From a phage: a stretch of 64,000 nt of DNA. Positions 8,436 to 63,163 of the stretch are shown here, in pieces (the stretch's first letter is position 1; each line of letters begins with the position of its first letter). A program made the translations under genes and the position numbers. The notes beneath the pieces were generated by a model, which saw nothing but the letters and a program-made list of their open reading frames with translations, did not search any database and was not told the origin of the DNA. The stretch lies in the NCBI GenBank assembly GCA_012646185.1, contig GCA_012646185.1_4706.1, one strand, 5' to 3'.

Positions 8436-8493
8436 GCTGACCTCATAGATGATCGTTGATAGGAAAGAAACCTAATTCATACCATGGGAACCT

Positions 8494-8555
8494 CAAAAAA
8501 AAAAAAATAGGAAAATAGGAAAAACGGTGTTCACCCCTAAAAAGGATGAACACCG
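8494..8555 (-). terminator. intrinsic terminator for minus-strand transcript: 9-bp stem hairpin (8525-8555) followed by a T14 run (A14 on plus, 8494-8507)
   Basis: Inverted repeat cggtgttca/tgaacaccg with 13-nt loop, directly after stop of 8576-9154 gene. Confidence 0.6.
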
Positions 8556-8575
8556 CGTACCGTTATATCGAACGA

Positions 8576-12519: not shown

Positions 12520-12692
12520 GAACTCCTTCCTACTTTTTCTGATAAAGCGATGATTCAAATTTTAGAAACACCGCTAACGCGAGTGCGATTAATAACGCAC
12601 GTACCCACATACCTCCTTGACAACTGTTGTACAACATAAAGACCAGAGCAATGCCGCCCATATGCAGGCGGCACTTATCGAACAATGTTGGT

Positions 12693-12920
12693 TTATACAT
12701 AAGAGATTAAACGTTGAATGATTTTTACTTTGCCTTTACCTGGACCTTTCTTGCGGCGATTCAACAGACGGATACTGTTTCCAGTTACGGTGTCGCCATC
12801 ATAATCAGCCTGGAACTGTGATAAAAAAGCAGGTTGTATCTGATCGACACCAGGATTGCTGTGGAAAGGATTGAGGCTTAAAAGAGGGTTAGCTGGAATC
12901 ATCGTATTGTCCTTACTCAA
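12693..12920 (-). CDS. hypothetical protein (75 aa)
   Basis: Short ORF, co-oriented; weak support. Confidence 0.35.
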   Translation of the reverse strand: MSKDNTMIPANPLLSLNPFHSNPGVDQIQPAFLSQFQADYDGDTVTGNSIRLLNRRKKGPGKGKVKIIQRLISYV

Positions 12921-13271
12921 TTATTTACCCAGATAGAGATATTCACCGCCCTGAACAACACCGGTTGCTGGATCAACAAGTATACGAACCCGCGCGTAGG
13001 TCTTGAAAGAGGGGTTGAAAACTTCGAAGTCTGCCACTTTCAATTTCACGCTGGGGTTGGTAGGGTTCTTAACTCCAGGGAGTTCTTTCGGGGTACCGAA
13101 ATCAACACCGCATTCTTCAAGGTCTGCTGGCGTCATGCTCTCCATGGCCATGTAGATTGCTTTTGCTTTATCGTAAACTTCTGGGCTATCCAGCAATCCA
13201 GCCTGCGCTGAACCGACAACACTACCGAACAGAATAGCAACAGCAACAAACAATTTAGTTAACGTTTTCAT
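12921..13271 (-). CDS. small secreted protein (116 aa)
   Basis: Signal-peptide-like N-terminus MKTLTKLFVAVAILFGSVVGSAQA; no lipobox cysteine. Confidence 0.55.
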   Translation of the reverse strand: MKTLTKLFVAVAILFGSVVGSAQAGLLDSPEVYDKAKAIYMAMESMTPADLEECGVDFGTPKELPGVKNPTNPSVKLKVADFEVFNPSFKTYARVRILVDPATGVVQGGEYLYLGK

Positions 13272-14176: not shown

Positions 14177-14196
14177 TAAGTAATATAGCCGTGAAA
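14177..14196 (-). promoter_or_regulatory. conserved 20-mer taagtaatatagccgtgaaa (minus-sense TTTCACGGCTATATTACTTA), candidate early promoter element
   Basis: Identical 20-mer recurs at 42189-42208; both are intergenic and upstream of minus-strand genes; contains TATATTAC. Confidence 0.4.
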
Positions 14197-44534: not shown

Positions 44535-45986
44535 ATGAAACTTAAACAAAGCTGGAAAGACGAACTTCTCGCGTTAGTAAATAGCAAAAACAGCTTACAG
44601 CTGACATTAGCCGACGTAAAATTTGAACTAACTGAACCGGTAAGCGAAGTGCCCGGAACGGTTGTCGTTACGATCAAACCGAACGATGATAGCCGTTACT
44701 TTAACGAGCAGTCTCTGACCTACATCCGTCGAGACATCGCTAAAAACTTCACCGGGATCCCGTTACGGGTTATCGTTAAAAATGATACCGCCGTAAGGGA
44801 TATCATCAATACGATTGCTGAACGTTACGGATTGGTATTTGACACAACCATCGACTTCCTCGAATCCGAGCTGAATAAGCAGATTACGTTCGAAGACACC
44901 GGTATTAAAGACATTACGGTTCCGGTTGCAAACACGTCTTATGTTTGGGCTGGTAATCTTCAGTTCAATATCGCTAACGATACGTTGAGCTTGATTACGA
45001 TCATCAAGCAAACCAATCTTACGAATCTGGTTTATCTGGATGGTGTTGAATCTAACACATCGGGTTCGTTACTATTAGCAACGACCTCGGTTATCGGCGA
45101 AAACGGAAATGCCGAAACAACTGAAGGTGTCCTTGACGCCGCGTACTTCCAGAATATCCTGAACGTCATGGTTCGTTATGGTGATATTACCAGCGAACAA
45201 ATGCAACAAGCAATGCAGACAATTAACGGAAGCGAAGACGCTCGTAGAGTAGAGGTGCGGTCATACGGTGACGCCGAATTACTGGTAACCACCAAGAAAG
45301 ATTGGGTTATCGGTAGCCTTAAGGGTGCTATGGTTGTTGGTCACGCTTCACCTAAACCAATCCAATACGTTCTTAAAACAAAAGGCGGCACCATTATATT
45401 GTCATTAGATGGTTGGACAAATGTCAATATCGATTGGGGTGATGGGAATAAGACGACGCAGGACTCAGGCGATAATGAATATCAGCACAATTATGCGGAC
45501 ACTACAGAACGTACGATCGTCGCTACGGGTACCCCTACCAACGTTGGAGATACAGACGTACAGCAAAGCTTCACCGGTGGTAACATCACTGAAATCGTTG
45601 ACTGGAACAACGGATTACCTAAGGCCCCATCATTACTTGCAGCGAACAGTTTAACTAAGGTTCCCGATTATATCCCGGCATACTGGACATCGTTAGAAGG
45701 TATGTTTACGCGATGCAGCGCTATTAACGACGTGAACATCACCAAATGGAACACCCGCAACGTTACTTCAATGAAGGACCTCTTCTACGGTTGCGCTACG
45801 TTCAACCAACCGATCGGTTCGTGGGATGTTTCGTCTGTTAAGAATGCAGACAATATGTTGTCTGGGTGCTTCGCGTTCAATCAGGATCTGAGTGGTTGGA
45901 CATTCCCGGCAGGCACTTCACACATCAACTACGACGCCATGACCGCCGCATGGCAGGCTGGTTATAAACCACACTTCACCGAGTAA
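44535..45986 (+). CDS. two-domain protein: shared N-terminal module plus C-terminal DUF285/BspA-like repeats; candidate fiber or adhesin
   Basis: N-terminus parallels 3261-3788 and 7605-8435; C-terminus has repeats MFTRCSAINDVNITKWNTRNVTSMKDLFYGCATFNQPIGSWDVSSVKNADNMLSGCFAFNQDLSGW. Confidence 0.65.
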   Translation: MKLKQSWKDELLALVNSKNSLQLTLADVKFELTEPVSEVPGTVVVTIKPNDDSRYFNEQSLTYIRRDIAKNFTGIPLRVIVKNDTAVRDIINTIAERYGLVFDTTIDFLESELNKQITFEDTGIKDITVPVANTSYVWAGNLQFNIANDTLSLITIIKQTNLTNLVYLDGVESNTSGSLLLATTSVIGENGNAETTEGVLDAAYFQNILNVMVRYGDITSEQMQQAMQTINGSEDARRVEVRSYGDAELLVTTKKDWVIGSLKGAMVVGHASPKPIQYVLKTKGGTIILSLDGWTNVNIDWGDGNKTTQDSGDNEYQHNYADTTERTIVATGTPTNVGDTDVQQSFTGGNITEIVDWNNGLPKAPSLLAANSLTKVPDYIPAYWTSLEGMFTRCSAINDVNITKWNTRNVTSMKDLFYGCATFNQPIGSWDVSSVKNADNMLSGCFAFNQDLSGWTFPAGTSHINYDAMTAAWQAGYKPHFTE

Positions 45987-46044
45987 AAAAAAAAAAAAAT
46001 AGATAGCATATCTTCCTCCCTACCCATAACGGGCGGGGAGGAAG
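45985..46044. terminator. bidirectional terminator at convergent junction: A15 run (45985-45999) plus extended GC hairpin (46012-46044)
   Basis: cttcctccc/gggaggaag arms with inner ccc/ggg stem; T15 in minus sense follows the hairpin after stop of 46062-46400. Confidence 0.55.
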
Positions 46045-52996: not shown

Positions 52997-53007
52997 CGTA
53001 TACCTCG

Positions 53008-55176
53008 TTAGCTTTCGCAGTCATCTGCGTCGATGATTTGTCCGCCAGCAACGTTCAGTTGATGATACAGAATCCTCAACGCACGGTTGCCGCCAATGGG
53101 ATACTTCTCGAAGTTGGTTGCAATAGGAATCGCTGACGGTTTATCGGTCGCATAGATGCTTTCAGTGATGCTATCCACCTGTTTTGGATTGTTCGCATAA
53201 TCCATAAAGACGCTCGCGAACCATCCGCCAGCAAAGGCGGTAACTTCGCGATGTTCAGATTCACCACAGTAACGAGTTGGTTGCTCTTTACCCGGAGAAC
53301 TGTATTTATCGCTATTACTGAGTTTCGACGGTAGTCCATGCGCTTGCAGTTTAGGGATGCCCACCGCTGACCAGTCGTTCGCCGTCTTCTCCAACATCAT
53401 GATGTACGTGTCACCGATCGCAATATCGTTCTTGGTTGTCCGCCACTGCCCAGAACGCCCACGATACCGTACAGGACCTTTCTTCAACGGGAACTCACGA
53501 ATCAGATTCTCCATACGTTCTGAACCTGCTGCGATACTGTCTGTCGGGATATAAACTTCCGTACCGTGGCGTTGTACGTACCGTAAATGATCCCATTTAT
53601 CCTCATCCGTGATACAGTATTTTTCAACAACCTGTTCCACGAATTCAGGACTGACGATATAGTAGTAGCGCATCAGTGTGTTCCAAGCGGTCTCCAGATC
53701 GCCTGCATCCATCACCGGTTTCAGTTCACGCATGATCTGATCACCAACGCCGTTGATGTAAGGTGCGTTAACACGACTTAAACTCATCCTTTTGATTACC
53801 GTACTATCGTCGAACATGAAGTCCGCAACGTTACCCCATTGGTCAACCGGCATTTCATCGTCTTCCATGATGTCGGTTACGACGAATTTATCACCCGCCA
53901 TACCGGTGAATTTAAACCCGATACCTGGAACAACGTCGTACGTGTACGTGATGGTCACACGCCAATCATCGAGATTCTCTTTACGATAATCGCGGGTCGG
54001 TAACACATGACGTAGCTGTCCGTTGGGATTGCGGATATCAATACCGTGTTCAGCATCAGCCAGGTTCAACCACCACATCACCGTTTGATGATGACGTATC
54101 GGCGTACCAACGCGTTCACGTTCGTACTTACGAACAGCATCCTGAATTCGGGTGTAAAGCAAACCAATCGCGTTCTCGTATTTCAGGAATTGACGATACG
54201 GAGGACGCATCTTCTCTTCCATCATAATCGCACGCTCGCGGGCTTGACGTCCAGAACGACGATGCCGGTCGCTGACAACATCGATATCCGTTACACGCGC
54301 ATTCGGTTCCGCGTAAGTGAGGTCGTCGTAAACATAATCCACGCGCTGAAGATTACACGTCATCATGTCAACAACGCTGAGGATAGGATCGATTTCGCGT
54401 GTTGCTGCAAGTAACCCATCCTTACGAATACGCTCACCGTTCTCGGGTATTGCTTGATATACCTCATCGTCACCGTAGAGATTGATTGGGTATCGTGATT
54501 TACCTGATGTGATCGTCCGCTTCTCAATGCCGGTACTGGTGAAATGCTTCAATACACCACGACGGGCAACACCACCATCCTCGATACACTGATAGAAGCT
54601 ACCGAAACACACTTTGCAATCGCGACCGTAACCCCACTCGCGCGTTTCTTGATTGATCGCTGGGCTTTCCATCAAACGAGAATATCGCGGTACGATCTGG
54701 CCTCGACGAAGGGAATGGAACAAGTTGGTTGGTCGAAAACGGAAACCGTACTGCTGATGCATGATGTGATGCTCAGGCACTTCAAGCAAGCGTAGCTCGT
54801 GACGGTTACCATCCTCTTGGTTTTCATACAGCACGTAATGCATCGTGTTTGTTTTGATGCTGTTTGCTGTATGCCCCGGTTGGAAACGTGGGATGATATC
54901 TATGATGCGAGATTCGACTGGAAACTCTACTGACCACGTGTTCTGTCCGTACTGGTATTCGATCCCCGTCGTCAGTCGGGACGGTTTCGCATCTTTGATA
55001 ACCAACGCTTGGCTAAGATGTCCACCAAACATCGCAGCGCGCTGTGCTGAGTTATAATGCAGTAGCCCGTTAAGTCCAGTCCCTACGCCAGTATACTCCT
55101 GTTTAATGGGAATGATTTTACCTTCAGCGATTGCCTGCTTCACAGATTCATAAAGAGGTTTTTCTTTATAATGCAT
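53008..55176 (-). CDS. RNA polymerase beta-like subunit (C-terminal-type fragment of a split phage multisubunit RNAP)
   Basis: [40 protein letters not shown] parallels E. coli beta [56 protein letters not shown] parallels [45 protein letters not shown] parallels [28 protein letters not shown], with matching spacing. Start moved to ATG 55176 with AGGAAG SD. Confidence 0.75.
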   Translation of the reverse strand: [722 protein letters not shown]

Positions 55177-55206
55177 AGGACTTCCTATTATCGAATTGAG
55201 GTACGT

Positions 55207-55561
55207 CATGTCTAACACGCCCCTGAACGACTTTCTTAAGACAAACCCCGATGACCTCATCCACGATCTTGATTTCAGGAACGTTGTTGAGATGCATCTG
55301 GAATATTTCAAAAATGCCGGACTGGTCTCTACGATAGACATACCACCCGAACGCGCCTACGAATTCGATGGTAACTTTTATGGATTGTGTCGTGTTCTGC
55401 TCGGCGAGGGTAGCGAACCAATGCACTGGATAACCATGAGACTCAATGGTTATCGCGACCCTACGGAATACACCGCCGATGTTCTAACCATGAAGATTGT
55501 CGATACAAGCGCAATCAACACATTAAAACAACAGTACCGCACAATCCACTACAGCGCTTAA
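55207..55561 (+). CDS. hypothetical protein (~118 aa), lone plus-strand gene inside the minus block
   Basis: ATG at 55207 preceded by GAGGT; followed by hairpin 55567-55595; could be spurious. Confidence 0.35.
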
Positions 55562-55566
55562 GATAA

Positions 55567-55606
55567 CCCTCCCACAGCGTAAAGCGTAGGGAGGGCATTT
55601 ATGCCG
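55567..55606. terminator. GC hairpin CCCTCCC/GGGAGGG (15-nt loop) followed on plus strand by CATTTATGCCG
   Basis: Arms 55567-55573 and 55589-55595 between convergent ORFs 55207-55561 (+) and 55627-56907 (-). Confidence 0.45.
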
Positions 55607-55626
55607 TCGTTCGATGACTTAATACA

Positions 55627-56907
55627 TCAGAAACGATTCACAGTACGTCCTGTCCACGCGCTCAGGATGTTGTTACGTTCCATCTCAGCCCGACGACGTA
55701 AACCGTTTGGCGACTGCGGTGCTTGCGGCATCCCCCATCCAGCCGGTTGCATACCCATGCCCGGCCAAGCAGCGTTATTGAACATCGTACCGTTACGTTC
55801 CGCAACACGGTTCATCAGCGCATCAAACGTGCTATTACCTGCCGGTTGGTTACCGCCGCTTTCCCACTGATTAGGTTGGACAGGTGCGGTTTTACCCAAC
55901 AGGTTATCGATCACACTGCCTGTTGAAGCAGGACGCGGTTGCATACCTTCATGTGCAGCTGCTGATGGATTTGGCTTAACCGTCGGCTGTGGACGACTGT
56001 TCAGCGTTACACCCATGTTGTATTTCGCTGGCGGAATCTGACCACGATGTTGATTGATCGGTTCAAAATCCTCAACCCAGGTAACATCACAGTAGCCGTT
56101 CTCTTTACCGTCGTACTTATCACCAAACAGTTTGATGAGATTGTTCAGCGGTTCCATCAGCTTAGCGAAGCTGTGGATAAGACAATCGAAATACGGAGCA
56201 TGAGGATCGCTTGACCCAGCGTTGTACGTTTCACTTACCTCACCCGCGTGCGGGATAACGTACTCAACCAGGTTTCTCAGCATGTTAAGATCTTTCTTGG
56301 AAATCTCAACACCACACCAGTACGTTTTCTTATCTTTCGTGCTGATGTGTTCTTCTTCCATGAACGGGAAAGTAACGACCGCAACGCGGGTCATCTTCTT
56401 ACCCATGTAGGTTGCGCCGGTACGACGAAGATAAATTTTGGACAGCGTATACGGTGTGTCGCGTTTCAGCCAAACGGTGACCAGTTTGCCCAGGGTCGTT
56501 AGTGTTTTATCGCTGGCGTCCGCAAGGATGTTGAAGAACTCTTTTTGCTTCGGTCCGAAACGTTTTGCTTCTTTAGGATTGATTGCGGTTTCAACCATCC
56601 AAATCAGCATGGAGCATAGCGTGGCGTTAAAACGAACAACCATCGCACGACGCAGGAACTGAAGTACTTCCGATTCGCCGTTCATCACGTCTTCACTTAG
56701 CGGATGGAACAGCACACGTTCAGCCAGCTGATTTCCGGTACGAACTTCAGAAACCGGCATCAGCAACGGCATGCTTTCCACGGTAGCGGCAACTGCAACA
56801 ACTTTACCATCCCCATCCGTAAAACGATATTCTAATTCGTGGGCGTCATTCTCAAAATAGTTAACGCTCTGTAGTGCTTTGCGATAAGCTTCGATAAGCT
56901 TCGACAT
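55627..56907 (-). CDS. hypothetical protein (426 aa) with low-complexity P/Q/G/N/M-rich C-terminal region
   Basis: C-terminal ~120 aa rich in Pro, Gln, Gly, Asn, Met (GMQPAGWGMPQAPQSPNG). Confidence 0.55.
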   Translation of the reverse strand: MSKLIEAYRKALQSVNYFENDAHELEYRFTDGDGKVVAVAATVESMPLLMPVSEVRTGNQLAERVLFHPLSEDVMNGESEVLQFLRRAMVVRFNATLCSMLIWMVETAINPKEAKRFGPKQKEFFNILADASDKTLTTLGKLVTVWLKRDTPYTLSKIYLRRTGATYMGKKMTRVAVVTFPFMEEEHISTKDKKTYWCGVEISKKDLNMLRNLVEYVIPHAGEVSETYNAGSSDPHAPYFDCLIHSFAKLMEPLNNLIKLFGDKYDGKENGYCDVTWVEDFEPINQHRGQIPPAKYNMGVTLNSRPQPTVKPNPSAAAHEGMQPRPASTGSVIDNLLGKTAPVQPNQWESGGNQPAGNSTFDALMNRVAERNGTMFNNAAWPGMGMQPAGWGMPQAPQSPNGLRRRAEMERNNILSAWTGRTVNRF

Positions 56908-56962
56908 ATTGTATTTCCTTTTCTTTACGTCAACGGTCCCCCTACAACAGGGGACCTATGGA

Positions 56963-58549
56963 TTAGAAGTTGCCTTTGGTAGTTACCGCATCCACCAGGT
57001 TAAACAAATCAACGCTCAGCTTATACACCTCCTGCTGGCTACGGTTGAGCAGCGGGCTGTATGCAGATGGGTTGATGTTCGGCATGGTGTACGGAATCGG
57101 TGCAGAACCGTCAACGCTGATCTTGAACTGGCTGTCCAGGAACAGGTTAATCGCGCCGCTCACCATAACCGCATTCGGGTTGTTGCCCAACATGGAGGGT
57201 AGGATATTGGTAATCATGTCAGAACGCATTTGTTCAGCAGCACGGTTACAATCGTATCCTTTAATGAACGGTACTGCGTCGGTAACCGCAACCGCCCACT
57301 GACCAGGCATGATACCGAGTTCTGGGTGACCATGGTTGTCAGCAATGAAACGGAACGATTCCAACATGCGGTATGTCATCGCAGCAGGCATCATTGCAGC
57401 AAGCGATGAGCAATACAGCGTTGGATAATCGATCACGTCCCAGCTCTGACTATCGGTCGGCATCCAACCAAACTCGGTGGTTGCTGATGTACCACGACGA
57501 GCTTCCACATACGGGAATAACGTTAAGACATCACGGATATGTTCACCGAACATCCGTTTCATGTCCGCCCAACTCAGGCTGCCGCTGAACGCGAATCCTT
57601 CATCACGCATAATCGCACCGAATACCGGATGCGCAACCAACGGTTCTTCGCGAACAGCTTGAGCGGCTTCTACGTAAATATCCTCGTTCTCTGCGCTACC
57701 TGGATGAGACCCGCTTTCGTACGTCTGACGAATAGCCCCAACATTATCGAAGGCTTTTCTTAGATAAATGGTTGGGATGTTCGTATCGGCACTAGCGGGT
57801 TTGATTTTCTCTGTTGCGAAACACATTGCTGCTTCCACACCACGGAAAACCGGTTCCGGTTGCGGTGGATAGGATGTACGATGAACCACATCAGCGTAGG
57901 CGGGATCGAACTGTTGCATTACGTTCTGCATGGCTGGGTCCATGAACTGGTTATCAAAACCACCATTGCCCACCCAACGCGCTGTTGATGCATAGGTCAG
58001 CGTATCCTGAACACGAGTACTGAACTGAACATCACGATTAACCGGGTCGTATGCGCCGGTCAACAGGTTCGTTGCGTCCATCGGGGTTGCACGAACGATT
58101 TGCTTACCGAACATATCCGTTGTGGTTGTTTCGGTTACCTGGATTACGTTCGTGAAGAAGAACACCAGTTCGTTCGGCAGATCGATAGCGCGCGTTGTAA
58201 ACGCATCGAGGCTTACAGAATGGTCGGTGTATCCAGAAATGTAATGGACACGCTTGGTTCCTGGTGCGAGGGTCAAGGATTCTTCTACCGCCATCATGAA
58301 ATGGAAACGACGTGTGCCCCAACCATTCGCAATCTCCGAAACCCCCTCAGGTTCTGCAGACTGCTGCAACAAACCGGTTGCAAGCTTATTGATTGCTGAT
58401 GGTGTTGTTGCCGTACCGAACTTCGTCGTGTTAATGAAGTCTTCGATGCTACGCATGCTATCTGCGTGGAATCGTAGTGGGCGACGTTGTACGTTGTTGT
58501 ACGGTGCGGTTTCAACCATCAGTATTTCACGAACATTCATCGGGATCAT
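56963..58549 (-). CDS. hypothetical protein (528 aa)
   Basis: Long ORF, co-oriented, 1-nt gap to upstream gene. Confidence 0.6.
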   Translation of the reverse strand: MIPMNVREILMVETAPYNNVQRRPLRFHADSMRSIEDFINTTKFGTATTPSAINKLATGLLQQSAEPEGVSEIANGWGTRRFHFMMAVEESLTLAPGTKRVHYISGYTDHSVSLDAFTTRAIDLPNELVFFFTNVIQVTETTTTDMFGKQIVRATPMDATNLLTGAYDPVNRDVQFSTRVQDTLTYASTARWVGNGGFDNQFMDPAMQNVMQQFDPAYADVVHRTSYPPQPEPVFRGVEAAMCFATEKIKPASADTNIPTIYLRKAFDNVGAIRQTYESGSHPGSAENEDIYVEAAQAVREEPLVAHPVFGAIMRDEGFAFSGSLSWADMKRMFGEHIRDVLTLFPYVEARRGTSATTEFGWMPTDSQSWDVIDYPTLYCSSLAAMMPAAMTYRMLESFRFIADNHGHPELGIMPGQWAVAVTDAVPFIKGYDCNRAAEQMRSDMITNILPSMLGNNPNAVMVSGAINLFLDSQFKISVDGSAPIPYTMPNINPSAYSPLLNRSQQEVYKLSVDLFNLVDAVTTKGNF

Positions 58550-58550
58550 T

Positions 58551-60137
58551 TTATTTTTTTCCTCTTAAATTTACTACGTGTTCATTTAATCGAACAACTA
58601 ATTGCACAAGCTGCTGACGGATATCTGCTGGACAAAGCATCAATCCTTTACGGTCAGCTGGGACTTTCTCAAGGATTTCCGGGCCTGCTGCTGAAACATC
58701 CCAGTCCCATTCACAAAACGCATCGGCCACCATGTTAATACCGACAACCGGTAAAGTTGTACGTTCATCTTCATACATGGCGTGTGGATACAATTTATTG
58801 ACAGTAATGATCTCCTGTGGTTTTAATTGGTGGATAATCTGATAAACATCGTCGCGTTTGACCTGGATACCTACGGTCAGCGCTGCCAGTTGAGGAAAAC
58901 CCCAATGGTCTAATAAGCAAGCTGCAATCGCTAACGCTTTTGCTTGATGCACGGCTTCAATCGGTGCCAGACTTCTCGCCGGAAGATGGCTATCAAGCAA
59001 CCATTGTGCCAGTGCTCGGCATCCACGGTTGATTGGTTTTAACTCAACGGTGTCATCATGTTTAGCGTACGTGTATCCGTCGTAACGTTTTGCGATACGC
59101 GCATACATGTCTTCAACTTTACCGTAAGGTGCCGTTTCGTCGACGTCGTGCAACACACGTTCCATCTGGGTAAGATACGCGATATCAAGAATGAGTACAC
59201 GCGGTGAACGTTTATCTTTCACCATCAACGCATCAATCACGCCTTGACTGTCTTCATCTTGCGCGTTCCCTCGTGGGGTTTTCTCACGAATCGGTCCGCT
59301 GAAACGTCGTTCCGTACAAAGGTTATTCACATAGCTAAAGATCAGTGTTACCAGATGCGTACAACTCACCAACACCCCATCTTTAACGACAGGCTGTACG
59401 GCTTGGTCCAAGTCGCGTACGGCGAGACGGCGGACGATGGCTTGTGAACGCAACCAGCCGGGCACTTTCTCCGTCGACATGTAATCCACGGTCATCGACA
59501 GCGTGATCTTTTTATCACCCGTCTGTGCGCGGATATAGTCTTCCAGTCGGTCGTAAGCGGCGATATCGTGAATGCGTGTTTTATACATCAACGACATAGC
59601 CACTTCTTCTTTACGAACCGTTCCGTACGTTTTCCCTGCGTCAATCAGAAACTCTGCCCAAATCGGCACCATCAGACGGACGTAGATCGCTAACGCCGTT
59701 AACTCAACGTAATCATTTCGTAAATAGGTTTTCTCAGGAATATCATCCTCACCTAATGTTGTTTTCATGTCCGGCGGTAATTTTACCCAACCCGGGGTAT
59801 TACACAACGCCAGAATCTCTTCGTACACAACCGGTTTGTAAATTTCACCAACAGCGCGACTCAACTCCTCCATTTGTTGTTGTGGAGCAATGTAGTTATC
59901 CATCGCTTCACGTGCTTTAACGAACCCTTCGAAGATGTCGTCAATTCGACGTGGGTTCTTTTGTTCTATCCAGGCGAGATACTTGTTAATCTCCCGCATC
60001 TGATTGCTAGCCATATCCCCATCAATCTTGATGTAACCCTGACCTGAAAATTCCACAGTACGTCCATCACGGTGTTTGATGAGATAGTGATCCAGCTTTT
60101 CTTTTCCTTGCGTCGTAATGACGGGCACTATGTGCAT
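58551..60137 (-). CDS. hypothetical protein (~528 aa)
   Basis: Start moved to ATG 60137 (MHIVPV) with AAGAGG SD. Confidence 0.6.
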   Translation of the reverse strand: MHIVPVITTQGKEKLDHYLIKHRDGRTVEFSGQGYIKIDGDMASNQMREINKYLAWIEQKNPRRIDDIFEGFVKAREAMDNYIAPQQQMEELSRAVGEIYKPVVYEEILALCNTPGWVKLPPDMKTTLGEDDIPEKTYLRNDYVELTALAIYVRLMVPIWAEFLIDAGKTYGTVRKEEVAMSLMYKTRIHDIAAYDRLEDYIRAQTGDKKITLSMTVDYMSTEKVPGWLRSQAIVRRLAVRDLDQAVQPVVKDGVLVSCTHLVTLIFSYVNNLCTERRFSGPIREKTPRGNAQDEDSQGVIDALMVKDKRSPRVLILDIAYLTQMERVLHDVDETAPYGKVEDMYARIAKRYDGYTYAKHDDTVELKPINRGCRALAQWLLDSHLPARSLAPIEAVHQAKALAIAACLLDHWGFPQLAALTVGIQVKRDDVYQIIHQLKPQEIITVNKLYPHAMYEDERTTLPVVGINMVADAFCEWDWDVSAAGPEILEKVPADRKGLMLCPADIRQQLVQLVVRLNEHVVNLRGKK

Positions 60138-60194
60138 AACAACCTCTTTTCGCGGTTCCCTGTTAAAACGTCTTCTGTGACGTCTACCACAAAG

Positions 60195-60210
60195 GTAATA
60201 TAAGCGTGAA
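60195..60210 (-). promoter_or_regulatory. variant of the conserved promoter-like element (gtaatataagcgtgaa), about 58 nt upstream of ATG at 60137
   Basis: Matches the 20-mer at 14177 and 42189 at 14 of 16 positions; minus-sense reads TTCACGCTTATATTAC. Confidence 0.3.
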
Positions 60211-60341
60211 TAATTTTGGATTCCGGCTGAGTTATCGCTCAGCATGCAAGGCATCCCGCCGAAGCGAGACACCTTGCACTAACGGAAAATATTCGCGTTA
60301 CCTTCTGAATCGAAGACTCAGAATGCGATGCTAAAGCGTTA

Positions 60342-62037: not shown

Positions 62038-63163
62038 GCCAAGCAGAAACCTTTAAGGCATCAACGTTCGGGTATTTATTACGAATGCGTTCGACCAACA
62101 AACGCTTAACGTTGTCCTTTGTCAAGTCCCCACCTTTCTCGATAACGTTATTGACAAAACTGTTCTTTAATAGCGACTGGTTGTTCTTGGCATCCGTTTT
62201 AATTGACCAGACAAAACCTGGATACAAAGAAGGGATAGAACGAAACGTTTTCGCCGCATCGTCTTCCTTATCGCAGCGTATTCGGATATGATCACCCTTC
62301 TTCAATGGAGCCAATTCCCGTTCCAACACACGGACAATTTCATCTCCAACAAGACCATGCAGTTTTATCGTCTTGTAGACATCTGCTTTCTTGTTTTCAA
62401 CAAATTCCCACTGGTCGTTAAACGTTTCCGTTAACATATAACGGAGATACCCTTTTGGACCTTCTTCACCGTGCGCCAAGCGACCGAACGAACCGCCAAC
62501 CATGATACGTCCTTTCTGGGATTGTAAGTGGATGTGCCCGCTCACGACCCACCCTTGGGTCTTCTCCACCATTGCGTTATACGCATCGCTGCTATGAACA
62601 CATGTTGCTTTTAACGCTTCTGGTGGAAGCTGATATTCAAACGCGCCATGCATCAGAATGAAGTCCGGCGATCCCTTCTCATCAATAAGTCGGTTCACAG
62701 CCGACAACGTCACATCCGGATCGTGGCTGTAGTTATCTGGAAGATAGAGCACTTTTAAACCAAAGTCTTCATCAACCATGCAGAGATCATCGTAATAACG
62801 AACTTTCGCTCCTATCTCCATGACCTCGTTCTGTTCAACGAACCACTGGCTTTGCTTCTGGTCGTGTAAATTGGTACCCTCAAGAAAGATCAACGTAATA
62901 TCGTGTTTTCTTGCATACCGTAACAACCAGGTGCCCCAGGCACGAACAGCAACCACGTCACTCGTCACAAACGTCGTGATACGATCGAAGACATCACCGC
63001 TGAACGTAATCACATCAAGCAGCGCAGGATCTTCTTTTGTAATGTAATAACGCAGTTGGCTAATCAGGTTTACTGTCGGTGTTTGACGATGGATAAAGTG
63101 AATATCCGACAAATTGATTCCACGTAATACCCCAGGCGTTTTATTTCGACTGAAGTCTCGCAT
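62021..63163 (-). CDS. calcineurin-like metallophosphoesterase, Mre11/SbcD-like nuclease candidate
   Basis: Motifs in order: LSDIHFIH (DxH), FSGDVFDR (GDxxD), LEGTNLHD (GNHD-like), ILMHGAFE (H), VSGHIHLQ (GHxH). Confidence 0.55.
   Translation of the reverse strand: MRDFSRNKTPGVLRGINLSDIHFIHRQTPTVNLISQLRYYITKEDPALLDVITFSGDVFDRITTFVTSDVVAVRAWGTWLLRYARKHDITLIFLEGTNLHDQKQSQWFVEQNEVMEIGAKVRYYDDLCMVDEDFGLKVLYLPDNYSHDPDVTLSAVNRLIDEKGSPDFILMHGAFEYQLPPEALKATCVHSSDAYNAMVEKTQGWVVSGHIHLQSQKGRIMVGGSFGRLAHGEEGPKGYLRYMLTETFNDQWEFVENKKADVYKTIKLHGLVGDEIVRVLERELAPLKKGDHIRIRCDKEDDAAKTFRSIPSLYPGFVWSIKTDAKNNQSLLKNSFVNNVIEKGGDLTKDNVKRLLVERIRNKYPNVDALKVSAWLDTLP

What the first reader, a model, noticed from the sequence alone, without database searches (positions are those of the whole stretch)
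55176..55561. Possible divergent plus-strand gene 30 nt from the RNAP beta-like gene start
With the beta-like start at 55176, an oppositely oriented ORF begins at 55207 with its own GAGGT and ends at a hairpin. Only about 30 nt separate the two starts, leaving almost no room for promoters. Either the small ORF is spurious or the two genes share a compact bidirectional control region.
Basis: seen in the sequence. Interest (0 to 1): 0.35.

Follow-up and report, generated by a model that had tools for sequence, protein, structure and literature searches.

The report
Known phage baseplate gene beside polymerase gene
The small plus-strand ORF is a real and already characterised gene for a 117-residue inner-baseplate protein of a Goslar-like jumbo phage (Goslar gp172, cryo-EM structure deposited), so the finding is ordinary apart from an unusually tight 31-nt head-to-head junction with the RNA polymerase beta gene.

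Summary
The window is about 97.5% identical to Escherichia phage Goslar, a nucleus-forming jumbo phage. The minus-strand nvRNAP beta gene starts at 55176. The plus-strand ORF is 55208-55561, with GAGGT at 55198-55202, a 31-nt gap and a hairpin at 55567-55595.

The ORF is not spurious. It is 116/117 identical to Goslar gp172, which is deposited in the PDB as "Inner Baseplate Protein gp172" and was detected in virions by mass spectrometry. It belongs to PHROG 3455. A profile search finds 1250 clusters of related proteins, and the gene sits at the same syntenic place in every chimallivirus examined.

The gene ends at a phiKZ-type terminator, a hairpin followed by TTATGCCGT. The "shared bidirectional control region" is not supported. 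The phage's sharply defined early-promoter motif has three perfect copies in the window and none near the gap. Nine relatives carry a related motif in their longer gaps.

The beta gene is most likely fed by read-through from the early promoter-like site at 60203-60195. Published, apparently unstranded Goslar RNA-seq fits this. The plus-strand late promoter must overlap the 5' end of the beta gene and was not identified.

Verdict: already known, low interest.

The parts
55208..55561 (+). Gene for a 117-aa inner-baseplate ('upper wedge') protein, the orthologue of Goslar gp172 (YP_009820857.1)
   Evidence: Translation. It is 99.1% identical to Goslar gp172. PDB 11lx_I 'Inner Baseplate Protein gp172' matches at E 6.9e-79 with one substitution, M77L. 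phrog_3455 matches at E 8.5e-22. Codon-usage test. A virion mass-spectrometry peptide, AYEFDGNFYGLCR, is assigned to the protein.
55198..55202 (+). Shine-Dalgarno sequence GAGGT of the baseplate gene, 5 nt before the ATG
   Evidence: Sequence read directly.
55177..55207 (.). 31-nt divergent gap, 100% identical to Goslar; it holds both Shine-Dalgarno sequences and 11 further bases between them
   Evidence: No early-promoter-class motif is present.
55181..55186 (-). Shine-Dalgarno sequence AGGAAG of the nvRNAP beta gene
   Evidence: the minus strand reads TAATAGGAAGTCCT-ATG.
53008..55176 (-). nvRNAP beta-subunit gene (Goslar gp171; phiKZ gp71/73-like), 722 aa
   Evidence: phrog_3295 matches at E 1.5e-180. 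Goslar annotation. The N-terminal alignment supports 55176 as the start and gives no support to the longer ORF reaching 55341.
55567..55595 (.). GC-rich hairpin (7-bp stem CCCTCCC/GGGAGGG) between the convergent baseplate gene and the gp173-like gene
   Evidence: Three differences from Goslar fall in the loop (55574, 55577, 55583) and the outer stem is unchanged.
55599..55607 (+). TTATGCCGT tail which, together with the hairpin, forms a phiKZ-type intrinsic terminator for the plus-strand transcript
   Evidence: The phiKZ terminator consensus is ...GGGRRGGBYTTATKYYGT (PMC10914365). In 6 relatives a hairpin followed by TTATGCCGT or a one-base variant follows the orthologous gene, and in RSL2 TTATGCCGT follows a less regular GC-rich stem.
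55627..56907 (-). Upstream neighbour in the early operon (Goslar gp173; phiKZ gp70-like)
56963..58549 (-). Goslar gp174-like gene (phiKZ gp69-like)
58551..60137 (-). Goslar gp175-like gene (phiKZ gp68-like, fifth nvRNAP subunit)
60186..60210 (-). Early-promoter-class motif TTCACGCTTATATTACCTTTGTG, about 58 nt upstream of the gp175-like start; the inferred origin of the transcript that reaches the beta gene
   Evidence: It is one of three 20/20 matches in the window, and the next best match anywhere is 15/20. Homologous early-type motifs lie upstream of phiKZ gp68 and 201phi2-1 gp124 (PMC11512511). In Goslar RNA-seq the fold change steps between gp176 and gp175.

Best explanation
What is shown:
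- 55208-55561(+) is a genuine protein-coding gene for the 117-aa inner-baseplate ('upper wedge') protein known as gp172 in phage Goslar.
- According to the Goslar cryo-EM work, six copies sit in the baseplate and the last tail-sheath layers pack against them.
- The nearest solved fold outside its own family is the P1 'plug' protein gp26, which glues wedges to the hub.
- The gene has its own ribosome-binding site and ends at the phage's characteristic terminator, a CCCTCCC/GGGAGGG hairpin followed by TTATGCCGT.
- The 31-nt gap contains the two ribosome-binding sites and no copy of the phage's early-promoter motif.

What is inferred:
- The gene is a one-gene, plus-strand transcription unit set in opposite orientation inside a minus-strand early block: gp175 (gp68-like), gp174, gp173, then beta.
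- The beta gene has no promoter of its own here. It is transcribed by the virion RNA polymerase from the early promoter-like site at about 60.2 kb. That transcript reads through the hairpin, whose minus-strand tail is the imperfect TTATCTTAA, and runs antisense across the baseplate gene.
- The baseplate gene is transcribed late by the non-virion polymerase, from a minimal start-site promoter that overlaps the first codons or the ribosome-binding site of the beta gene. That promoter was not identified.
For: Gene identity:
- The window is 97.5% identical to Goslar, where the ORF is annotated as gp172.
- PDB 11lx_I matches at 116/117 residues.
- The Goslar virion cryo-EM text and mass-spectrometry table report 45% coverage, 13.5 kDa, 6 copies and 'Inner baseplate'.
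- phrog_3455 matches at E 8.5e-22.
- tblastn hits occur in 115 phage records.
- A profile search finds 1250 50%-identity clusters at E<=1e-3, nearly all 105-125 aa long.
- The gene lies at the same place between the gp70-like and beta genes in 201phi2-1, phiKZ/PA7, RAY, RSL2, pTD1, PhiPA3, PCH45, PhiEaH1, Xoo-sp14 and metagenomic contigs.
- The codon-usage test supports this frame.

Fold:
- The AlphaFold2 model has pLDDT 84.8.
- BFVD returns the orthologues plus 'baseplate wedge' proteins of other myoviruses.
- P1 gp26 is described as a six-fold 'plug' that binds the wedge to the hub (PMC12810830).

Terminator:
- The composite hairpin+TTATG occurs 16 times in the window against 0-5 in shuffles.
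- The only strong plus-strand copies follow the two plus-strand genes gp161 and gp172.
- The same element follows the orthologue in other genera and matches the phiKZ terminator consensus.

No early promoter in the gap:
- Three 20/20 motif copies exist in the window; the region 55150-55640 reaches at most 11/20 on either strand.
- All nine relatives carry TATAT[TC]A[CT] on the minus strand of their 61-237-nt gaps. The window has none.
- In phiKZ and 201phi2-1 that motif matches the one upstream of gp68/gp124.

Read-through (Goslar RNA-seq, Supplementary Table 2):
- In the ChmA knockdown, where late genes collapse, the gp172 locus keeps early-like counts. Its log2FC is +1.10/+1.19/+0.66, the same as gp170-gp175.
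- Late partners fall sharply: gp063 is -5.5 to -8, gp161 about -5 and gp202 about -3.5.
- A step occurs between gp176 and gp175.
Against: - No TSS data exist for this junction.
- The RNA-seq library appears to be non-directional. I identify the kit from my own knowledge of NEB E7770. Duplicates were removed, so counts are near saturation. The early-like signal over gp172 could therefore be sense transcription rather than antisense read-through.
- On the minus strand the hairpin is followed by TTAT, and bidirectional terminators are documented in phiKZ and 201phi2-1. Part of the early transcript may stop there, in which case an unrecognised promoter inside the baseplate gene would be needed.
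- In 201phi2-1 the beta gene does have its own mapped promoter.
- No TATG, the phiKZ late-promoter core, lies within 160 nt upstream of the plus-strand ATG, so the late promoter is undefined.
- The early-promoter class rests on only three sites in this window.
Confidence: 0.78

Rival explanations
1. Compact bidirectional control region. Both genes start transcription at or around the 31-nt gap from back-to-back or overlapping promoters, as the first reader proposed and as seems to be the case in relatives.
For: - Every relative examined has an early-type TATAT[TC]A[CT] motif on the beta-gene strand in the homologous gap.
- In 201phi2-1, gp129/gp130 are transcribed from their own promoter.
- A sigma-70-like match, TAGACA-16-GATAAT, lies at 55214-55187 on the minus strand.
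- The minus strand reads CCTAT-GC-ATTAT at 55179-55168, which resembles the RAY/pTD1 motif CCTATATTAT with a 2-nt insert.
Against: - No match to the window's early-promoter class lies in or near the gap (11/20, background).
- The CCTATGCATTAT resemblance covers the beta start codon itself, so it could not serve that gene.
- Sigma-70-like sites occur at chance frequency (2 found, 1.7 expected), and phiKZ-type phages transcribe independently of host RNAP (PMC4666361).
- The AAAGTTACC 'middle-promoter-like' word inside the baseplate gene is not enriched (5 found, 2.8 expected).
Confidence: 0.15
2. The baseplate gene is itself transcribed early, in the sense direction, with its neighbours, rather than late. 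The early-like RNA-seq signal would then be sense RNA.
For: - The gp172 counts are unaffected by ChmA knockdown, unlike all other baseplate genes checked.
- The plus-strand sequence TTTATAATGCATAGG weakly resembles the early core CTTATATTACCTTTG (11/20 on the full motif).
- In 201phi2-1 some structural genes are expressed from middle promoters.
Against: - There is no significant early motif on the plus strand.
- The library is apparently unstranded, and coverage equals that of the flanking minus-strand genes, which a single read-through transcript explains more simply.
- All partner baseplate proteins behave as late genes.
Confidence: 0.1
3. The ORF is a chance open frame in a 450-nt non-coding spacer.
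For: - Pfam gives no hit.
- The orthologous ORF is unannotated in the phiKZ and PhiPA3 GenBank records.
Against: - Solved structure and virion peptides exist for a 99% identical protein.
- The family comprises 1250 clusters.
- Synteny is conserved and codon usage fits.
Confidence: 0.01

Closest known systems
Escherichia phage Goslar gp172 (HOV27_gp172, YP_009820857.1; PDB 11lx chain I, 'Inner Baseplate Protein gp172')
   Same: 116/117 residues are identical. The neighbours, the 31-nt gap (100% identical) and the terminator hairpin stem are the same.
   Different: There is one substitution (M77L), one synonymous change, and three changes in the hairpin loop. This is a different isolate.
Bacteriophage P1 gp26, baseplate 'plug' (PDB 9ay5_S / 9vzk_d)
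phiKZ-type intrinsic terminators (BCCYCCCCHWWDGGGRRGGBYTTATKYYGT; Putzeys et al. 2024, PMC10914365)
   Same: It has a pyrimidine/purine GC-rich stem (CCCTCCC...GGGAGGG) followed by TTATGCCGT, at the 3' end of a gene, between convergent genes.
   Different: The loop is 15 nt rather than about 4. Three bases rather than two separate the stem from TTAT. Termination has not been measured in this phage.
phiKZ / 201phi2-1 arrangement of the same genes (gp70 | unannotated ORF or gp127 | gp70.1 or gp128 | gp71-73 or gp129)
   Same: The order and orientation are the same, and the same protein family is followed by the same terminator type.
   Different: The relatives have 61-237-nt gaps that carry an early-type promoter motif for the beta operon. 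The Pseudomonas phages also have a small extra ORF there. The Goslar lineage has 31 nt and no such motif.
T4 gp25 / P2 gpW sheath-initiator family (Pfam GPW_gp25) and phiKZ gp62 'sheath initiator'
   Same: These are small baseplate proteins present in six copies and in contact with the first sheath layer.

Membership tests
Goslar gp172 / PHROG 3455 family of chimallivirus inner-baseplate proteins | Significant full-length sequence similarity to family members | tested here: met
   phrog_3455 matches at E 8.5e-22 over residues 13-112. The ORF is 99.1% identical to Goslar gp172. The alignment shows a conserved F57/W74/R78/N80 core. 1250 clusters are found at E<=1e-3.
Goslar gp172 / PHROG 3455 family of chimallivirus inner-baseplate proteins | Conserved genomic position: opposite strand, between the phiKZ gp70-like gene and the nvRNAP beta gene | tested here: met
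Goslar gp172 / PHROG 3455 family of chimallivirus inner-baseplate proteins | Presence of the protein in the virion baseplate | not testable with these tools
   This is shown for Goslar by cryo-EM and mass spectrometry and is carried over to this window through 116/117 identity. KTN4_093 is annotated as 'putative virion-associated protein'.
T4 gp25 / GPW_gp25 sheath initiators | Match to Pfam GPW_gp25 or a gp25-like fold | tested here: not met
P1 gp26-like baseplate 'plug' proteins | Shared fold over the whole chain | tested here: inconclusive
LysM domain | beta-alpha-alpha-beta LysM fold or a Pfam LysM match | tested here: inconclusive
phiKZ-type intrinsic terminator | GC-rich pyrimidine/purine stem followed within a few bases by TTATKYYGT, at a gene's 3' end | tested here: met
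   CCCTCCC-N15-GGGAGGG-CAT-TTATGCCGT begins 6 nt after the stop codon. The composite is enriched, 16 found against 0-5 in shuffles. Actual termination was not tested.
phiKZ-type late (nvRNAP) promoter | 5'-TATG-3' with G as +1, a short distance upstream of the gene | tested here: not met
   No TATG lies within 160 nt upstream of 55208 on the plus strand. Whether the Goslar nvRNAP uses the same core is unknown.
Chimallivirus early (vRNAP) promoter class, in the divergent gap | AT-rich TATATTAC-type core with conserved flanks (here TTCACGSYTATATTACYT..GTG) | tested here: not met
   The best match in 55150-55640 is 11/20, against 20/20 at 14188, 42200 and 60203. All nine relatives carry TATATTAC, TATATTAT or the variant TATATCA(T) in this gap, and the window has none.

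The most novel reading that the evidence does not exclude
The family-wide placement of a late baseplate gene in antisense orientation inside the early nvRNAP/import block may be a timing device rather than an accident. Early in infection, read-through antisense RNA would keep the baseplate gene silent. Late in infection, nvRNAP-driven plus-strand transcription of gp172, together with its terminator, would collide with and throttle transcription into the genes for the polymerase's own beta and beta-prime subunits. In the Goslar lineage this coupling would be at its tightest, because the beta gene has lost the private promoter that all nine relatives examined keep in the gap.
Probability: 0.08. 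Interest if true: 0.45.

Novelty: already known. Interest (0 to 1): 0.14.

Why it matters
The practical value is small. The work confirms that the ORF should be annotated as an inner-baseplate protein, and that the beta gene starts at 55176 rather than at the upstream ATGs.

Two modest points go beyond what I found in the literature I could search:
- The Goslar lineage lacks the early-type promoter that all nine relatives examined keep between this gene and the nvRNAP beta gene. That implies operon read-through antisense to a late gene.
- The phiKZ orthologue is still unannotated in the phiKZ GenBank record (AF399011) and is absent from the deposited phiKZ virion models. A baseplate component may therefore have been overlooked there.

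Tried and rejected
- **Goslar comparison for selection.** I compared the ORF with Goslar to look for purifying selection. Only 2 differences exist (1 synonymous, 1 non-synonymous), so the test is uninformative.
- **Single-sequence word-index search.** It found only one near-identical protein. A profile of phage orthologues was needed to reach the family.
- **Pfam.** It gives nothing for the ORF.
- **Whole-window k-mer counts.** They did not reveal promoter motifs. Reading the intergenic regions did.
- **Greedy ORF-based gene map.** It was too crude and swallowed gp172 into the over-long beta ORF, so I used the Goslar annotation instead.
- **AAANTTACC (phiKZ middle-promoter word).** A copy lies inside the baseplate gene at 55378-55370(-), but the word is not enriched (5 found, 2.8 expected). 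I rejected it as evidence.
- **TTATGCCGT alone.** It is not enriched. Only the hairpin+TTATG composite is.
- **Sigma-70 scan.** Matches occur at chance level.
- **Rfam.** No match in 54900-55800.
- **sORF007 of the phiKZ dRNA-seq paper.** I checked whether it is this gene. It is not: KTN4_059 and SL2 gp317 correspond to sORF007, whereas this gene is KTN4_093 and SL2 gp285.
- **phiKZ 'sheath initiator' gp62.** I checked whether it is the orthologue. It is unrelated.
- **Unavailable sources.** Ceyssens et al. 2014 and the supplementary TSS tables of the two ONT-cappable-seq papers are not held, so the mapped TSSs at the orthologous junctions could not be read.
Full report
**Where the window comes from.** A megablast of 53000-57000 finds Escherichia phage vB_EcoM_Goslar at 97.5% identity over the whole query. 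Goslar is a nucleus-forming jumbo phage (Chimalliviridae). In the RefSeq record:
- the minus-strand gene 53008-55176 corresponds to gp171, 'RNA polymerase beta subunit';
- the plus-strand ORF corresponds to gp172, 'hypothetical protein';
- the next minus-strand genes correspond to gp173, gp174 and gp175.

Notes in the 201phi2-1 record and the PHROG matches identify these as homologues of phiKZ gp71/73 (non-virion RNA polymerase beta), gp70, gp69 and gp68.

**Checking the observation.**
- The minus-strand start codon is at 55176-55174, preceded by AGGAAG and a 4-nt spacer.
- The plus-strand ATG is at 55208, one base to the right of the coordinate given. 55207-55210 is CATG.
- GAGGT lies at 55198-55202, and the stop codon is at 55559-55561.
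- The gap is 31 nt.
- A 7-bp CCCTCCC/GGGAGGG hairpin lies at 55567-55595.
- An N-terminal alignment with eight orthologous beta subunits supports 55176 as the start. None of them has an extension corresponding to the longer ORF that reaches 55341.

**Is the ORF a gene? Yes.**

Evidence from the sequence itself:
- In its own frame the ORF scores 0.173 bits/codon against the codon usage of the window's long genes. That lies within the in-frame range (0.294 +/- 0.084, minimum 0.060) and above every off-frame window (maximum 0.099). The other five frames score -0.02 to -0.71 and contain 2-9 stops.
- The AT skew reverses across the ORF.

Comparative evidence:
- phrog_3455 matches at E 8.5e-22.
- tblastn finds it in 115 phage records from Pseudomonas, Erwinia, Ralstonia, Vibrio, Burkholderia, Klebsiella, Salmonella, Serratia and Xanthomonas phages.
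- A profile search of 1.84 billion representatives finds 1250 clusters at E<=1e-3 and 808 at E<=1e-10. Nearly all listed hits are full-length proteins of about 105-125 aa.
- In every relative examined, the gene sits on the opposite strand between the gp70-like gene and the nvRNAP beta gene.

Direct protein evidence, for Goslar:
- The PDB holds 'Inner Baseplate Protein gp172' (11lx chain I), identical at 116/117 residues.
- A 2026 preprint on the Goslar virion places gp172 in the 'upper wedge' of the inner baseplate, with the last two sheath layers packing against it and gp63.
- Its mass-spectrometry table lists YP_009820857.1 with 45% coverage, 13.5 kDa and 6 copies, and assigns it the peptide AYEFDGNFYGLCR. 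That peptide is residues 50-62 of the window's ORF.

**What kind of protein?**
- An AlphaFold2 model built on 16 family sequences is confident, with mean pLDDT 84.8. It is mostly helical with two short strands.
- P1 gp26 is described as a six-fold 'plug' that binds the wedges to the central hub (PMC12810830).
- BFVD returns the orthologues and some 'baseplate wedge' proteins of other myoviruses.
- It is not a T4 gp25-type sheath initiator by Pfam or by fold.
- It is unrelated to phiKZ gp62, the protein called sheath initiator in the phiKZ atlas.

**The 3' end.** The hairpin is followed after 3 nt by TTATGCCGT.
- Putzeys et al. report a conserved phiKZ terminator motif, BCCYCCCCHWWDGGGRRGGBYTTATKYYGT. 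The element here fits it apart from a longer loop and one extra spacer base.
- The composite 'GC-rich hairpin followed within 0-4 nt by TTATG' occurs 16 times in the window, against 0-5 in 30 block shuffles.
- On the plus strand, the only strong copies follow the two plus-strand genes gp161 (46047) and gp172 (55599).
- A hairpin followed by TTATGCCGT, or a one-base variant of it, follows the orthologous gene in 201phi2-1, phiKZ/PA7, RAY, PhiPA3 and Xoo-sp14. In RSL2 TTATGCCGT follows a less regular GC-rich stem.
- The baseplate gene therefore has its own dedicated terminator. On the minus strand the same stem is followed by TTATCTTAA, an imperfect tail.

**The 5' junction and promoters.**
- Reading the window's intergenic regions revealed a sharply defined motif, TTCACGSYTATATTACYT..GTG. 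It has three perfect copies, all on the minus strand, at 14188-14180, 42200-42192 and 60203-60195. The next best match anywhere is 15/20.
- The third copy lies about 58 nt upstream of the gp175-like (gp68-like) start at 60137.
- phiKZ has GATCTATATTACT upstream of gp68, and 201phi2-1 has GATTTATATTACT upstream of gp124. An early promoter was mapped experimentally upstream of gp124. I therefore read this motif as the virion-polymerase early-promoter class.
- In all nine relatives, the gap between the baseplate gene and the beta gene (61-237 nt) carries a TATAT[TC]A[CT] motif on the beta-gene strand, 27-48 nt from the baseplate ATG. In phiKZ and 201phi2-1 this motif is nearly identical to the gp68/gp124 promoter.
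- The window's 31-nt gap has none, and nothing in 55150-55640 on either strand exceeds 11/20, which is background.
- The gap is 100% identical to Goslar. It consists of the beta Shine-Dalgarno sequence plus spacer, 11 further bases, and the gp172 Shine-Dalgarno sequence plus spacer.

**How the beta gene is probably expressed (inferred).** Transcription probably starts at the 60.2-kb early promoter and runs through gp175, gp174, gp173, the hairpin and the antisense strand of gp172 into gp171 and gp170. Published Goslar RNA-seq fits this.
- In a ChmA knockdown that arrests infection at the early stage, late structural genes fall by 3-8 log2 units (gp035, gp062, gp063, gp161, gp202, gp203).
- The gp172 locus instead shows log2FC +1.10/+1.19/+0.66, indistinguishable from gp170-gp175.
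- Its read density matches its neighbours: 1.73 reads/nt, against 1.75 for gp173 and 1.57 for gp171.
- The fold change steps between gp176 (about -0.5) and gp175 (about +0.9), exactly where the promoter motif lies.
- Caveats: the library kit (NEB E7770) is non-directional to my knowledge, and duplicates were removed. The data cannot separate strands and the counts are near saturation.

**How the baseplate gene is probably expressed (inferred).** It is probably transcribed late by the non-virion polymerase.
- In phiKZ that enzyme needs only TATG at -3..+1, plus ill-defined downstream context and non-specific backbone contacts to about -23. A promoter can therefore lie over the first codons of the beta gene.
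- No TATG occurs within 160 nt upstream here. Reviews note that late promoters of these phages cannot be predicted from sequence. The start site remains unknown.

**Comparison and verdict.** The ORF is an already annotated, structurally solved baseplate gene of a known phage. The one lineage-specific feature is the collapse of the divergent gap to 31 nt, with loss of the early-type promoter that all nine relatives examined keep there. This is a minor point for a specialist. Interest is low.

Noticed in passing
L014 (phiKZ AF399011) 12674-13033, minus strand = record 62673-63032; also PhiPA3 NC_028999 53313-53672: The phiKZ and PhiPA3 orthologues of this baseplate gene are not annotated in their GenBank records, although the phiKZ record already carries later '.1' additions. 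The phiKZ orthologue is absent from the PDB, while phiKZ gp62 from the virion atlas is present. A baseplate component may therefore have been missed in the phiKZ structural atlas.
   Followed up: partly
window 10857, 17718, 23839, 32325, 33922, 40369, 51679, 52541 (minus strand); 46047, 55599 (plus strand): A GC-rich hairpin followed by TTATG(C/T)(C/T)G(T) recurs about 10 times in strong form (16 in total, against 0-5 in shuffles). The tail contains TATG, the phiKZ late-promoter core. Most copies lie 18-130 nt upstream of the next co-oriented gene, so they might act as both terminator and late start site. The copy after gp172 has no co-oriented gene downstream yet is conserved across genera, which argues that the tail is part of the terminator signal.
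   Followed up: partly
window 14188-14180, 42200-42192, 60203-60195 (all minus strand): There are three perfect copies of a 20-position motif, TTCACGSYTATATTACYT..GTG, which are probable virion-RNAP early promoters. The copy at about 42.2 kb sits in the 160-nt divergent region between the gp159-like and gp160-like genes.
   Followed up: partly
window 58551-60272 (minus strand): The mechanical ORF list gives a 573-aa GTG-started ORF. The Goslar annotation and the position of the promoter motif indicate that the real start is the ATG at 60137 (528 aa). The early-promoter motif lies inside the spurious extension.
   Followed up: yes
window 55378-55370 (minus strand): AAAGTTACC matches the phiKZ middle-promoter consensus AAanTTACc. 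It lies antisense within the most conserved codons (DGNFYG) of the baseplate gene, about 200 nt upstream of the beta start. The word is not enriched in the window (5 found, 2.8 expected), so it is probably chance.
   Followed up: yes
window 55207-55210: CATG gives overlapping ATG codons on both strands. The minus-strand one is in frame with the beta gene and would add 11 residues, but it has no good Shine-Dalgarno sequence and no support from homologues.
   Followed up: yes
window 45985-45999 and 8495-8507: There are long A/T homopolymer runs: about 15 A at the stop codon of the gp161-like gene, and about 13 T on the minus strand in the 8436-8575 intergenic region after a hairpin.
   Followed up: no
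L002 3756-3935, L003 3805-3924, L014 13102-13272, L004 3932-4063: The Pseudomonas phages carry a small annotated ORF (36-59 aa: phiKZ gp70.1, 201phi2-1 gp128) immediately upstream of the beta gene on the same strand. RAY has a 43-aa ORF annotated that overlaps the baseplate gene on the opposite strand. The Goslar lineage has no room for such an ORF.
   Followed up: no
window 56920-56945 (minus strand), between the gp174-like and gp173-like genes: A GGTCCCC/GGGGACC hairpin without a TTATG tail lies inside the inferred early operon. It may be an attenuator or an RNA-stability element.
   Followed up: no
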